Shown here: positions 51,001-53,901 of the stretch, piece by piece
Layout of the letters: each line of letters begins with the position of its first letter
How positions within the stretch are numbered: position 1 is the stretch's first letter
Source: Escherichia coli
Lineage (GTDB): Bacteria; Pseudomonadota; Gammaproteobacteria; Enterobacterales; Enterobacteriaceae
Length of the DNA stretch: 64,000 bases
Reading direction: 5' to 3' (one strand)
Assembly (NCBI RefSeq): GCF_002854065.1
Contig: NZ_CP024147.1
Program-made: the position numbers

Positions 51001-53901
51001 ATAGTCAGTCTTTTTCTCGGCGGCGAGTTGGTGCTCCAGCCGGGAAATTCGGTCAGAAAGTGCGGCGATTTCCGGGTCAGTCGCTTTCTCCTGCGACGCA
51101 ACATGTGACTGCATACCCCAGCCACGCTCCGGTTGATAGAGCGTCGCCCAGATCCACAGAAACGGCCAGATAACATGCAGAGTAAACAGGCTCACCCAGC
51201 CCGCCGTATGAATAGCGTCGGCATGGGGATGGTTGCGCTTTTTGGCAATCAGATAAGGGATGTCATGTATCGCGATGATTCCATAAAAAATCACCAGAAA
51301 GACGAAGATCAGCACTCCCAACGCGAAATAGTTTAGAAACATATTTGCCTCGGATTCACGTTTATCAGTGTTGTTTTTTGGCTGGCAGCCAGAAGGGAGT
51401 CAGGCTGATATTTTGACAATAATCCGGGTTCGCGATTCTCGCCATAACACCAAAGAATAATTTTTAGAGGTGATGAGTTGCTTAGTTACATAACGATTGT
51501 ATGACGAAGGCATAACATGCTGTAGATCACATCAGGTGAACGCCGTAAGAAAATATCTTGTGATTCAGATCACAAAGATTCAACAAACCATCAAAACAAA
51601 AATGTGACATTAGTCACATTTAAATGCCATTTTTAGCGAAAATCGCCGCCTTGTTGCTTTTTTACACAAGCGTTTTGTGATGAACATCACGTCAATTACC
51701 TCTCTACCCCCTATATTTATGTGATTGATATCACACAAAAGGCCGTCGACTGGACAGTTAACCGATTCAGTGCCAGATTTCGCAGTATCTACAAGGTCCG
51801 GCTACCTCTGCCGCCACATTAACAAAAAACCTCGGGCTTCCAGCCTGCGCGACAGCAAACATAAGAAGGGGTGTTTTTATGTCATCCGATATTAAGATCA
51901 AAGTGCAAAGCTTTGGTCGTTTCCTCAGCAACATGGTGATGCCAAATATCGGCGCGTTTATCGCGTGGGGTATCATCACCGCGTTATTTATTCCAACAGG
52001 GTGGTTACCGAACGAGACGCTGGCGAAGCTGGTCGGGCCGATGATCACTTATCTCCTGCCGCTGCTGATCGGTTATACCGGTGGTAAGCTGGTAGGCGGC
52101 GAACGTGGCGGCGTAGTCGGTGCCATCACCACCATGGGCGTTATCGTCGGCGCAGACATGCCGATGTTCCTCGGTTCTATGATTGCAGGTCCGCTGGGCG
52201 GCTGGTGCATTAAGCACTTCGACCGCTGGGTAGACGGTAAGATCAAATCCGGTTTTGAGATGCTGGTGAATAACTTCTCCGCAGGCATCATCGGGATGAT
52301 CCTCGCCATTCTGGCATTTCTCGGCATTGGCCCGATTGTTGAAGCCCTGTCCAAAATGCTGGCTGCGGGCGTTAACTTCATGGTTGTCCATGACATGCTG
52401 CCGCTGGCGTCTATCTTTGTTGAACCGGCGAAAATCCTGTTCCTCAACAACGCCATTAACCACGGTATCTTCTCGCCGCTGGGTATTCAGCAGTCCCATG
52501 AACTGGGTAAATCCATATTCTTCCTGATTGAAGCTAACCCAGGTCCGGGTATGGGCGTGCTGCTGGCGTACATGTTCTTTGGTCGTGGTAGCGCTAAACA
52601 GTCTGCGGGCGGTGCGGCAATTATCCACTTCCTGGGTGGTATCCACGAAATTTACTTCCCGTATGTGTTGATGAATCCGCGTCTGATCCTGGCCGTTATC
52701 CTCGGCGGTATGACTGGCGTGTTCACGCTGACTATCCTGGGCGGTGGTCTGGTTTCTCCGGCATCTCCGGGTTCTATCCTTGCTGTACTGGCGATGACAC
52801 CAAAAGGTGCTTATTTCGCTAACATCGCGGGTGTGTGTGCGGCGATGGCTGTCTCCTTTGTTGTCTCTGCTATTTTGCTGAAAACCAGCAAAGTGAAAGA
52901 AGAAGATGATATTGAAGCAGCAACTCGTCGTATGCAGGACATGAAAGCTGAGTCTAAAGGTGCATCTCCGCTGTCTGCGGGCGATGTGACTAACGACCTG
53001 AGCCACGTACGTAAAATCATCGTTGCCTGTGACGCCGGTATGGGTTCAAGTGCGATGGGCGCAGGCGTGCTGCGTAAGAAAATTCAGGATGCAGGTCTGT
53101 CGCAGATTTCGGTCACTAACAGTGCGATCAACAACCTGCCGCCAGATGTGGACCTCGTCATCACTCACCGTGACCTGACCGAACGCGCTATGCGCCAGGT
53201 TCCGCAGGCACAGCATATTTCGCTGACCAACTTCCTCGACAGCGGCCTGTACACCAGCCTGACCGAACGTCTGGTTGCTGCCCAGCGCCATACTGAAAAC
53301 GAAGTGAAAGTGAAAGACAGTCTGAAAGACAGCTTTGACGATTCCAGTGCTAACCTGTTCAAACTGGGCGCGGAGAACATCTTCCTCGGTCGCAAAGCGG
53401 CCACCAAAGAAGAAGCGATTCGTTTTGCTGGCGAGCAGCTGGTGAAAGGCGGTTACGTTGAGCCGGAATACGTTCAGGCGATGCTGGATCGTGAAAAACT
53501 GACCCCGACTTATCTGGGTGAGTCTATCGCGGTGCCACACGGTACGGTTGAAGCGAAAGATCGCGTACTGAAAACGGGCGTGGTGTTCTGCCAGTACCCG
53601 GAAGGCGTGCGCTTCGGTGAAGAAGAAGATGACATTGCCCGTCTGGTGATTGGTATTGCTGCCCGTAACAACGAGCACATTCAGGTTATCACCAGCCTGA
53701 CCAATGCACTGGATGATGAGTCCGTCATCGAGCGTCTGGCACACACCACCAGCGTGGATGAAGTGCTGGAACTGCTGGCAGGTCATAAGTAATCCAATCC
53801 CACCCTCTCCACATGGAGAAGGTGGGGCTAATTGCCTAATGCGCTACGCTTATCAGGCCTACAGGATGCATCACAATTTGTTGAATTTGCACGTTCTTGT
53901 A

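What the first reader, a model, noticed from the sequence alone, without database searches (positions are those of the whole stretch)
51559..51735. Four CRP-like palindromes in 180 bp upstream of mtlA
Three of the four are perfect TGTGA-N6-TCACA sites, an unusually dense array consistent with the multi-site CRP control described for the mtl operon. The MtlR operator is presumably interleaved but was not identified.
Basis: partly seen in the sequence, partly recalled or inferred. Interest (0 to 1): 0.3.

Follow-up and report, generated by a model that had tools for sequence, protein, structure and literature searches.

The report
Known CRP site array of mtl operon
The four palindromes are real and are four of the five long-known binding sites for the global sugar-sensing regulator CRP in front of the E. 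coli mannitol operon; the repressor MtlR has no DNA operator of its own but docks onto pairs of CRP molecules bound 44 bp apart.

Summary
There are three perfect TGTGA-N6-TCACA sites (51559-74, 51603-18, 51720-35) and one 9/10 site (51676-91). The three perfect sites are the only ones in the 64 kb (0.10 expected), and the four sites rank 1-4 in a PWM scan. The window is E. coli, and the yibI-mtlA intergenic region aligns to K-12 without indels. Centre-to-centre spacings of 44/73/44 bp match published sites CRP2-CRP5 (-219.5, -175.5, -102.5, -58.5).

The CRP interpretation is right. The "interleaved MtlR operator" is not. MtlR has only the PF05068 domain and does not bind DNA. Lee et al. (NAR 2026) show that an MtlR dimer bridges two CRP dimers spaced 43-46 bp apart and blocks activation, and that dephosphorylated EII-Mtl sequesters MtlR at the membrane.

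My comparison of 79 mtlA loci supports this. A 43-46 bp CRP pair occurs in 54/57 MtlR-encoding loci against 1/20 without MtlR. One result goes beyond the paper. The 73-bp CRP3-CRP4 gap, which does not recruit MtlR, is equally invariant across Enterobacterales, Vibrionales and Aeromonadales (72-74 bp; 63 bp in Edwardsiella). Three short non-CRP blocks are also conserved.

Verdict: already known, low interest.

The parts
51516..51531 (.). CRP1: weak CRP site CATGCTGTAGATCACA (7/10 consensus, right half perfect), centre 51523.5 = -262.5.
   Evidence: The PWM gives 10.5 bits, rank 13 in the window. It lies 43 bp from CRP2, and the 7/10 match agrees with Lee 2026. The right half TCACA is kept at this position in 17/22 Enterobacteriaceae-like loci and in 0/16 loci of other Enterobacterales families.
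51559..51574 (.). CRP2: TGTGATTCAGATCACA (10/10), centre 51566.5 = -219.5. Published as essential for activation.
   Evidence: Lee 2026
51603..51618 (.). CRP3: TGTGACATTAGTCACA (10/10), centre 51610.5 = -175.5. Forms the upstream 44-bp MtlR-docking pair with CRP2.
   Evidence: K-12 differs only in the central N6, which reads CACTAC.
51676..51691 (.). CRP4: TGTGATGAACATCACG (9/10), centre 51683.5 = -102.5.
   Evidence: K-12 differs only in the N6, which reads TGAACG.
51720..51735 (.). CRP5: TGTGATTGATATCACA (10/10), centre 51727.5 = -58.5. Promoter-proximal, Class-I-like. Forms the downstream 44-bp MtlR-docking pair with CRP4.
   Evidence: Lee 2026
51751..51756 (+). -35 hexamer TGGACA of the mtlA promoter (inferred)
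   Evidence: Its position follows from CRP5 = -58.5, which puts +1 at about 51786. It is conserved in register in 37 Enterobacterales loci. The simple consensus scan did not call this promoter because the -10 is weak.
51774..51779 (+). -10 hexamer CAGATT (weak; TAGAGT in Serratia and Yersinia). The 17-bp spacer puts the transcription start at about 51786 and gives a 93-nt 5' UTR.
   Evidence: The start site comes from S1 mapping as cited by Lee 2026.
51758..51771 (.). Cra(FruR)-like element TTAACCGATTCAGT between -35 and -10 (inferred)
   Evidence: Read directly from the sequence. The resemblance to the Cra half-palindrome TGAAWCGWTTCA is from my own knowledge. The literature says a Cra site exists in this promoter. 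It is conserved only in the Escherichia/Citrobacter/Enterobacter clade.
51550..51555 (.). Conserved non-CRP block AAAATA, centred 14 bp upstream of the CRP2 centre. Function unknown.
   Evidence: Information content is about 1.0-1.8 bit per column across 37 non-redundant Enterobacterales loci, while the neighbouring spacer is near 0.
51582..51587 (.). Conserved non-CRP block AACAAA in the CRP2-CRP3 spacer, centred 18 bp downstream of the CRP2 centre. Function unknown.
   Evidence: It is near-invariant across Enterobacterales.
51657..51667 (.). Moderately conserved T-tract block (consensus TTTTTTTACAC) inside the 73-bp CRP3-CRP4 gap. Function unknown.
51879..53792 (+). mtlA, mannitol PTS enzyme IICBA (637 aa). 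The regulated gene and, in its dephosphorylated form, the protein that sequesters MtlR.
   Evidence: 3 aa differences from K-12
54022..55170 (+). mtlD, mannitol-1-phosphate 5-dehydrogenase
55170..55757 (+). mtlR, repressor without a DNA-binding domain (195 aa). The CRP-interface residues R167 and L178 are present.
   Evidence: Pfam finds PF05068 only. PDB 6KCR matches at E = 3e-124. There is 1 aa difference from K-12, and R167 and L178 are present.

Best explanation
This is the control region of the E. coli mtlADR operon. It is a Class III CRP-dependent promoter with five cAMP-CRP sites, of which CRP1 is weak and CRP2-5 are strong. The four strong sites are arranged as two pairs 44 bp apart (centre to centre), and the pairs are separated by 73 bp. 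cAMP-CRP bound at CRP2-5 activates a weak sigma-70 promoter (-35 TGGACA, -10 CAGATT, start at about 51786). Each 43-46-bp pair is also the docking platform for the MtlR dimer. MtlR has no DNA-binding domain. It bridges two adjacent DNA-bound CRP dimers and blocks their contacts with RNA polymerase, a form of anti-activation. When mannitol is transported, dephosphorylated EII-Mtl (MtlA) pulls MtlR to the membrane and the operon is derepressed. Dephospho-HPr competes for MtlR and restores repression when glucose is present. Shown here: the sites, their statistics, their identity with the published sites, and their deep conservation together with MtlR. Taken from the literature: CRP binding, MtlR bridging, and sequestration. 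Inferred: the promoter hexamers and the Cra-like site.
For: The sites are far beyond chance. The window is E. coli and is indel-free against K-12 over the 536-bp intergenic region, with only 5 substitutions. Three of these fall in the unconstrained N6 of CRP3 and CRP4. Spacings of 43/44/73/44 bp and consensus matches of 7/10, 10/10 and 10/10 equal the published values. In 79 mtlA loci from species-representative genomes, 54/57 loci that encode an MtlR homologue have a 43-46-bp pair of CRP sites, against 1/20 loci without one. Firmicute and Fusobacterial mtlA loci have no sites. In 37 non-redundant Enterobacterales loci the CRP pentamers are near-invariant, while the spacers have diverged to 0.4-0.7 bit per column without a single indel from CRP2 to the promoter. 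In the same loci the CRP5-to-ATG distance takes 15 different values. MtlR here has only PF05068, matches PDB 6KCR and keeps R167 and L178. The published experiments include an EMSA supershift seen only when two CRP sites 43-46 bp apart are occupied, interface mutants, chromosomal site mutants and membrane sequestration. The array persists where yibIH is not the upstream neighbour.
Against: Nothing in the sequence contradicts this. There are four caveats. My PWM is an approximation written from memory of the CRP logo, not a curated matrix. The transcription start and hexamers are mapped by arithmetic from published site centres, because the paper's figure and supplementary primers were not available. 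The MtlR-CRP bridge rests on one 2026 paper that uses an AlphaFold3 model plus EMSA and genetics, not a solved complex, and the same laboratory had earlier failed to detect an MtlR-CRP interaction without DNA. MtlR docking also does not explain why far-upstream CRP2 is essential for activation, or why the 73-bp gap is invariant.
Confidence: 0.93

Rival explanations
1. A classical MtlR operator, meaning a DNA sequence bound directly by MtlR, is interleaved between the CRP sites and mediates repression by occlusion.
For: Three short non-CRP blocks (AAAATA 51550-55, AACAAA 51582-87, T7ACAC 51657-67) are conserved across Enterobacterales and could in principle be protein-binding sites.
Against: MtlR has no recognisable DNA-binding domain (literature). 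Purified MtlR and MtlR-HPr do not shift mtl DNA. MtlR supershifts a foreign malK fragment once its two CRP sites are moved to 44 bp apart with arbitrary inserted sequence. The conserved blocks are not palindromic, and none lies in the CRP4-CRP5 spacer, which also recruits MtlR.
Confidence: 0.03
2. The array, or its upstream half CRP1-3, mainly serves the divergent yibI-yibH genes (50980-51342, minus strand, and beyond) rather than mtlA.
For: CRP1-3 lie 180-270 bp from the yibI start codon in a shared 536-bp intergenic region. A divergent role cannot be excluded for E. coli.
Against: yibI/yibH lie upstream of mtlA in only 12 of the loci, yet the 44/73/44 array is kept in at least 26 further Enterobacterales loci with other neighbours, at a fixed distance from the mtlA promoter. 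Chromosomal mutation of CRP2 abolishes mtl expression.
Confidence: 0.05
3. MtlR docking does not fully explain the geometry. The conserved ~7-turn CRP3-CRP4 gap and the conserved A/T blocks reflect a higher-order bent or looped CRP-DNA-RNA polymerase activation complex, possibly with further factors such as alpha-CTD or Fis. This is complementary to the best explanation rather than exclusive of it.
For: The central gap is 73 bp in 43 MtlR+ loci, 72 bp in three loci at the lower score threshold (Providencia, Budvicia diplopodorum, Photorhabdus), 74 bp in Tolumonas and 63 bp in Edwardsiella. These are 6.9-7.05 and 6.0 helical turns at 10.5 bp per turn. The gap does not recruit MtlR in vitro. CRP2 at -219.5 is essential for activation, and the authors themselves invoke phase-dependent looping. 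The AACAAA block is centred 18 bp from the CRP2 centre, close to where alpha-CTD sits next to CRP in the CAP-alphaCTD-DNA structure. That last point is from my own knowledge and is untested here.
Against: There is no experiment on the gap length other than shortening it to 44 bp in an EMSA. A single 63-bp case is thin evidence for periodicity. The conserved blocks could have unrelated roles. alpha-CTD reaching -200 requires strong DNA wrapping.
Confidence: 0.4
4. It is a chance cluster of palindromes, or a repeated extragenic element such as REP/BIME, with no regulatory meaning.
For: The consensus scan flags the CRP3 palindrome as 'terminator-like'.
Against: 0.10 perfect sites are expected in 64 kb and 3 are found within 177 bp. 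There is no similarity to REP. The pentamers are conserved across three orders while the spacers diverge. CRP binding has been shown experimentally.
Confidence: 0.005

Closest known systems
E. coli K-12 mtlADR control region, with five cAMP-CRP sites (Ramseier & Saier 1995) and CRP-anchored MtlR repression (Lee et al., NAR 2026, PMC13421365)
   Same: It is the same locus. The gene order yibI | mtlA mtlD mtlR is the same. The 536-bp intergenic regions align without indels and with 5 substitutions. The site spacing is identical (43/44/73/44 bp), as are the consensus matches. MtlR differs by 1 aa and keeps R167 and L178.
   Different: There are only allelic differences. The CRP3 N6 is CATTAG here against CACTAC in K-12, and the CRP4 N6 is TGAACA against TGAACG. 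Neither touches the consensus pentamers.
CytR-CRP repression complexes (deoP2, cdd and others)
   Same: A repressor is held between two DNA-bound CRP dimers and acts as an anti-activator. The spacing of tandem CRP sites matters (discussed by Lee 2026).
   Different: CytR is a LacI-family protein that also binds its own operator between the CRP sites. MtlR has no DNA-binding domain, so no operator sequence is needed, and arbitrary spacer DNA works.
malEp-malKp divergent region with several adjacent CRP sites
   Same: It is a dense array of CRP sites forming a higher-order Class III activation complex.
   Different: The spacing is 34 bp, not 43-46 bp, and MtlR does not bind unless the spacing is engineered to 44 bp. 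It also needs MalT.
Mlc-EII(Glc) membrane sequestration
   Same: Derepression occurs when the dephosphorylated PTS permease captures the repressor at the membrane.
   Different: Mlc is a ROK-family DNA-binding repressor with its own operators.
pap operon remote CRP activation (site at -215)
   Same: A far-upstream CRP site is required for activation, and helical phase dependence is proposed.
   Different: pap has a single distal site, Lrp/PapI/H-NS and Dam methylation. It has no MtlR-like bridge.

Membership tests
cAMP-CRP (CAP) binding site | A 16-bp core matching TGTGA-N6-TCACA with two-fold symmetry | tested here: met
   Three sites match 10/10 and one 9/10. CRP1 matches 7/10.
cAMP-CRP (CAP) binding site | A weight-matrix score above the genomic background | tested here: met
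   The four sites rank 1-4 of the window at 16.5-20.5 bits, against a simulated mean maximum of 13.6. CRP1, at 10.5 bits, is not distinguishable from background on its own. The matrix is my own approximation.
cAMP-CRP (CAP) binding site | Coincidence with experimentally mapped CRP sites of the orthologous promoter | tested here: met
   The alignment to K-12 has no indels. The centres give 43/44/73/44 bp, equal to the published -262.5/-219.5/-175.5/-102.5/-58.5.
cAMP-CRP (CAP) binding site | Conservation of the half-sites in orthologous promoters while the flanks diverge | tested here: met
   37 non-redundant Enterobacterales loci give 1.27-1.35 bit per column over the cores, against 0.44-0.74 in the spacers.
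cAMP-CRP (CAP) binding site | Physical binding of cAMP-CRP to this DNA | not testable with these tools
   EMSA and footprints are published for the K-12 allele. The window allele differs only in N6 bases.
MtlR-CRP-DNA repression module (Lee et al. 2026) | At least one pair of adjacent CRP sites 43-46 bp apart, centre to centre | tested here: met
   CRP1-2 are 43 bp apart, CRP2-3 44 bp and CRP4-5 44 bp. These are the only such pairs (both sites at least 8 bits) in the 64-kb window.
MtlR-CRP-DNA repression module (Lee et al. 2026) | An MtlR-family protein (PF05068, no DNA-binding domain) encoded with the operon | tested here: met
   mtlR lies at 55170-55757. PF05068 matches at E = 1.7e-65 and no other domain is found. 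PDB 6KCR matches at 3e-124.
MtlR-CRP-DNA repression module (Lee et al. 2026) | The CRP-interface residues R167 and L178 of MtlR | tested here: met
   Both are present. Their role is described.
MtlR-CRP-DNA repression module (Lee et al. 2026) | Co-occurrence of MtlR and the 43-46-bp CRP pair across genomes | tested here: met
   54/57 MtlR+ loci have the pair, against 1/20 MtlR- loci.
MtlR-CRP-DNA repression module (Lee et al. 2026) | Formation of the ternary MtlR-CRP-DNA complex and release by dephospho-EII-Mtl | not testable with these tools
   Published for K-12.
Classical repressor-operator pair (MtlR operator interleaved with the CRP sites) | The repressor has a DNA-binding domain and binds DNA by itself | tested here: not met
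   Only PF05068 is found. The literature reports no DNA binding by MtlR or MtlR-HPr.
Classical repressor-operator pair (MtlR operator interleaved with the CRP sites) | A conserved, usually symmetric, non-CRP sequence in every spacer that recruits the repressor | tested here: not met
   The conserved blocks are asymmetric, and none lies in the CRP4-5 spacer, which has only scattered weak conservation (0.44 bit per column). Arbitrary spacer DNA supports MtlR recruitment.

The most novel reading that the evidence does not exclude
The whole geometry 'pair (43-45 bp) - about 7 helical turns (72-74 bp; 63 bp in Edwardsiella) - pair (43-44 bp)' is maintained without indels across Enterobacterales, Vibrionales and Aeromonadales, not only the 44-bp pairs. 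Three short non-CRP blocks are also maintained in Enterobacterales (AAAATA, AACAAA and a T-tract). Published MtlR docking does not account for the central gap. This points to a phase-locked, bent or looped four-CRP activation complex that brings far-upstream CRP2 into functional contact with the promoter, possibly with alpha-CTD or another factor docking on the conserved A/T blocks. MtlR would then disrupt this complex.
Probability: 0.35. Interest if true: 0.4.

Novelty: already known. Interest (0 to 1): 0.12.

Why it matters
As handed over, the finding re-discovers a control region characterised since 1995. It is useful as a positive control for the scan and no more. The correction does matter for annotation. 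Nobody should look for an MtlR operator sequence here, because the operator is the spacing of the CRP sites. The cross-genus comparison done here gives independent genomic support for that recently published and unusual mechanism, a repressor with no DNA-binding domain that reads the distance between two activator molecules. It also flags an unexplained constraint, the invariant ~7-turn central gap and the conserved blocks. This makes the open question of how CRP sites at -175 and -220 activate transcription directly testable by phasing mutants.

Tried and rejected
1. The consensus promoter scan did not find the mtlA promoter, because its -10 (CAGATT) matches only 3/6. Its one promoter hit is on the minus strand inside the mtlA start and is at chance level. 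Its two 'terminator-like' hits are the CRP3 palindrome and a weak stem near the -35. I rejected them as artefacts.
2. An Rfam scan of the whole window found nothing in the mtl leader or array.
3. Figge et al. 1994, Tan et al. 2009 and the supplementary files of Lee et al. 2026 are not held. I therefore could not check the probe primers or Fig. 2C directly and mapped coordinates by arithmetic.
4. I tried to use O157:H7 strain TR01, which is 100% identical over the 561-bp query, as an annotation template for the whole window. It is not collinear: it has the Rhs element where the window has none, has a different IS content, and has a shorter mtlA-mtlD spacer.
5. I considered a divergent yibIH role for the array and rejected it as the main role.
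6. I looked for promoter-like or Fis- or IHF-like readings of the conserved AAAATA and AACAAA blocks by eye. None fitted convincingly, so they remain unexplained.
7. Two CRP-like sites 117 bp apart (44 + 73) upstream of malS have no intermediate sites, so I treat the spacing as coincidence.
8. I considered a metagenome-wide pattern scan for 44-bp-spaced perfect CRP pairs outside mtl. I did not run it, because E. coli mtl itself would saturate the hit list.
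Full report
**Observation.** The stretch 51559-51735 lies in the 536-bp intergenic region between yibI (50980-51342, minus strand) and mtlA (ATG at 51879).
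- An exact search for TGTGANNNNNNTCACA finds three matches in the whole 64-kb window: 51559-74, 51603-18 and 51720-35. Shuffles predict 0.10, and none of 100 shuffles gave three.
- One mismatch adds 51676-91 (TGTGATGAACATCACG) and only one unrelated site elsewhere.
- A symmetric 22-bp CRP weight matrix ranks these four sites first to fourth in the window, at 16.5-20.5 bits. The mean best score in 100 simulated sequences is 13.6. I wrote this matrix from my own knowledge of the CRP logo, so it is approximate.
- CRP-like sites also rank 11th and 18th in the xylA-xylF intergenic region and 6th and 9th upstream of malS. Both regions are expected CRP targets from my own knowledge, so they serve as informal positive controls.

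**Identity of the locus.** The region is E. coli.
- A 561-bp query is found in 5,404 of 5,426 complete E. coli genomes, always between yibI and mtlA.
- Against K-12 MG1655 the intergenic region aligns without any indel and with five substitutions. Three of them fall in the central N6 of CRP3 and CRP4 and none touches a consensus pentamer.
- mtlA, mtlD and mtlR follow. MtlR differs from K-12 by one residue.

**Comparison with what is published.** The key source is Lee et al., Nucleic Acids Res. 2026 (PMC13421365).
- The paper states that the mtl control region has five CRP sites, CRP1-5, centred at -262.5, -219.5, -175.5, -102.5 and -58.5. The centre-to-centre distances are 43, 44, 73 and 44 bp.
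- CRP1 matches only 7 of the 10 consensus bases, while CRP2 and CRP3 match all 10.
- The four sites in the window have centres at 51566.5, 51610.5, 51683.5 and 51727.5, which gives 44/73/44 bp. They are therefore CRP2-CRP5.
- Forty-three bp upstream of CRP2 lies CATGCTGTAGATCACA (51516-31), with 7/10 matches. It scores 10.5 bits and ranks 13th in the window.
- Placing CRP5 at -58.5 puts the transcription start at about 51786. This gives a -35 TGGACA (51751-56), a 17-bp spacer and a weak -10 CAGATT (51774-79). Both hexamers are conserved in register in other genera.
- The original description of five sites is Ramseier & Saier 1995, as cited.

**The MtlR operator.** The evidence is against this.
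- MtlR carries only the PF05068 domain, and the protein itself has been solved (PDB 6KCR).
- Choe et al. 2017 report that no DNA binding of MtlR or MtlR-HPr could be shown.
- Lee et al. 2026 show that MtlR supershifts mtl DNA only when cAMP-CRP occupies two sites 43-46 bp apart (optimum 44-45 bp).
- The CRP3-4 fragment (73 bp) does not recruit MtlR unless it is shortened to 44 bp.
- A malK fragment recruits MtlR once arbitrary DNA extends its CRP spacing from 34 to 44 bp.
- MtlR mutants R167E and L178A lose both binding and repression.
- Chromosomal mutation of CRP2, CRP4 or CRP5 abolishes expression. Mutation of CRP1 has no effect.
- Both R167 and L178 are present in the window's MtlR.
- In this window the only pairs of CRP-like sites (at least 8 bits) that are 43-46 bp apart are the three in the mtl array.

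**Independent comparative test.** I fetched 80 mtlA loci from species-representative genomes and scanned up to 700 bp upstream of mtlA in 79 of them.
- Of 57 loci that also encode an MtlR homologue, 54 have an adjacent CRP pair at 43-46 bp. Of 20 loci without MtlR, 1 does. The Firmicute, Fusobacterial and alphaproteobacterial loci have essentially no sites.
- Among adjacent spacings in MtlR+ loci, 44 bp occurs 88 times, 43 bp 10 times and 45 bp 4 times.
- I stacked 37 non-redundant Enterobacterales loci, from Escherichia to Budvicia, without gaps. The CRP2-5 cores carry 1.27-1.35 bit per column. The spacers carry 0.44-0.74 bit per column and contain not a single indel between CRP2 and the promoter.
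- In the same loci the distance from CRP5 to the start codon takes 15 different values, from 145.5 to 190.5. This shows that neighbouring non-coding DNA tolerates indels freely.
- The array is retained where yibIH is not the upstream neighbour. yibIH is upstream in only 12 loci, so the array belongs to mtl.

**What goes beyond the paper.** The paper does not discuss conservation of the central gap. It compares operator architecture in only four other species and reports only their 43-44-bp pairs.
- The 73-bp CRP3-CRP4 gap does not recruit MtlR, yet it is as invariant as the 44-bp pairs.
  - It is 73 bp in 43 MtlR+ loci.
  - It is 72 bp in Providencia, Budvicia diplopodorum and Photorhabdus, and 74 bp in Tolumonas.
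  - Aeromonas (45/73/44), Photobacterium pectinilyticum (45/73/43) and five Vibrio species (44/73/43) also keep 73 bp.
  - It is 63 bp in Edwardsiella.
  - At 10.5 bp per turn these lengths are 6.9-7.05 and 6.0 helical turns.
  - This fits the authors' untested suggestion of phase-dependent remote activation. The single 63-bp case is thin support for periodicity.
- Three non-CRP blocks are conserved across Enterobacterales.
  - AAAATA (51550-55) is centred 14 bp upstream of the CRP2 centre.
  - AACAAA (51582-87) is centred 18 bp downstream of the CRP2 centre. From my own knowledge of the CAP-alphaCTD-DNA structure, this is about where alpha-CTD sits beside CRP. I did not test this.
  - A T-tract block (consensus TTTTTTTACAC, 51657-67) lies inside the 73-bp gap.
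  - Their function is unknown.
- The right half-site of CRP1 is kept at 43 bp from CRP2 in 17 of 22 Enterobacteriaceae-like loci, although the site is dispensable in the laboratory. It is absent in all 16 loci from other Enterobacterales families.

**Mechanism, with status of each step.**
- Shown here: the sites, their significance, their identity with the mapped sites, and the co-conservation of the spacing with MtlR.
- Taken from the literature: CRP binding and activation, the MtlR bridge and anti-activation, EII-Mtl sequestration, HPr competition, and the existence of Cra and Fis sites.
- Inferred: the promoter hexamers, a Cra-like element TTAACCGATTCAGT (51758-71) between -35 and -10, and the architectural role of the central gap.

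**Verdict.** The finding is a correct re-identification of a known regulatory region. Four of the five known CRP sites were found. The one wrong assumption is that a separate MtlR operator exists. The novelty class is 'already known' and interest is low. The residual interest lies in the unexplained invariance of the ~7-turn gap and the conserved blocks.

Noticed in passing
window 51619-51675 (the 73-bp centre-to-centre gap between CRP3 and CRP4); loci L004-L083: The central gap is length-invariant across three orders: 73 bp in 43 loci, 72-74 bp in a few, and 63 bp in Edwardsiella (L048). Its sequence has diverged and it does not recruit MtlR. Lee et al. 2026 do not discuss this.
   Followed up: partly
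window 51550-51555, 51582-51587, 51657-51667: Short non-CRP blocks (AAAATA, AACAAA, T7ACAC) are conserved in register across 37 Enterobacterales loci. AACAAA sits 18 bp from the CRP2 centre. No factor is assigned to any of them.
   Followed up: partly
Only its right half TCACA and a left-half TTGC are conserved, and only within Enterobacteriaceae-like genera. That is odd for a site reported as dispensable.
   Followed up: yes
window 51758-51771: TTAACCGATTCAGT lies between the -35 and -10 and resembles a Cra (FruR) half-palindrome. It is conserved only in the Escherichia/Citrobacter/Enterobacter clade.
   Followed up: partly
window 51608-51613 and 51681-51686 compared with K-12 (L001): Three of the five substitutions between this strain and K-12 in the 536-bp intergenic region fall inside the central N6 of CRP3 and CRP4. 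None is in the spacers between CRP sites.
   Followed up: no
window 17331-18662: There is a ~1.33-kb insertion relative to O157:H7 TR01 next to xylB, with a 5-bp overlap at the junction. It has two overlapping ORFs carrying HTH_Tnp_1 and rve domains, so it is an IS3-family (IS2-like) element.
   Followed up: partly
window 44167-45789: Two tandem IS1 copies (insA and insB twice, period about 853 bp) lie between yiaY and selB. The Fic-family gene present in TR01 between aldB and yiaY is absent here (breakpoint at 43103).
   Followed up: partly
window 49771-49857: yibF and yibH are adjacent, about 70 bp apart. The RHS element and its immunity genes found here in TR01 (and rhsA in K-12) are absent. 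About 52 bp at the junction (49806-49857) is present on both sides of the island in TR01. A CRP-like site (12.8 bits) lies at 49828-49843.
   Followed up: no
window 53823-53938: The mtlA-mtlD spacer is 229 bp here, as in K-12, against 94 bp in TR01. The extra ~115 bp contains REP-type palindromes (gcctaatgcgctacgcttatcaggcctac and taggccggataaggcgtttacgccgcatccggcg), which make up a BIME.
   Followed up: partly
window 28460-28475 and 28577-28592: Two CRP-like sites (14.8 and 13.3 bits) lie in the bax-malS intergenic region, 117 bp apart (44 + 73). No intermediate site was found, so this is probably coincidence.
   Followed up: partly
window 22198-22213 and 22288-22303: CRP-like sites (11.9 and 9.7 bits) lie in the xylA-xylF divergent intergenic region. 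They are consistent with the CRP dependence of the xyl operons, which I know from the literature.
   Followed up: no
window 11369-11796 (+) and 32214-32256 (-): There are two Rfam matches above gathering score. One is the cspA thermoregulator (501 bits); the CDS at this position is labelled cspE in the TR01 annotation. The other is ES036 (CssrF) sRNA at 39.7 bits, just above threshold.
   Followed up: no
window 57299-60467: The DUF3251/ehaG (trimeric autotransporter adhesin) region downstream of yibL is only 81-96% identical to TR01 and has internally repeated matches. It is a divergent, repeat-rich adhesin allele.
   Followed up: no
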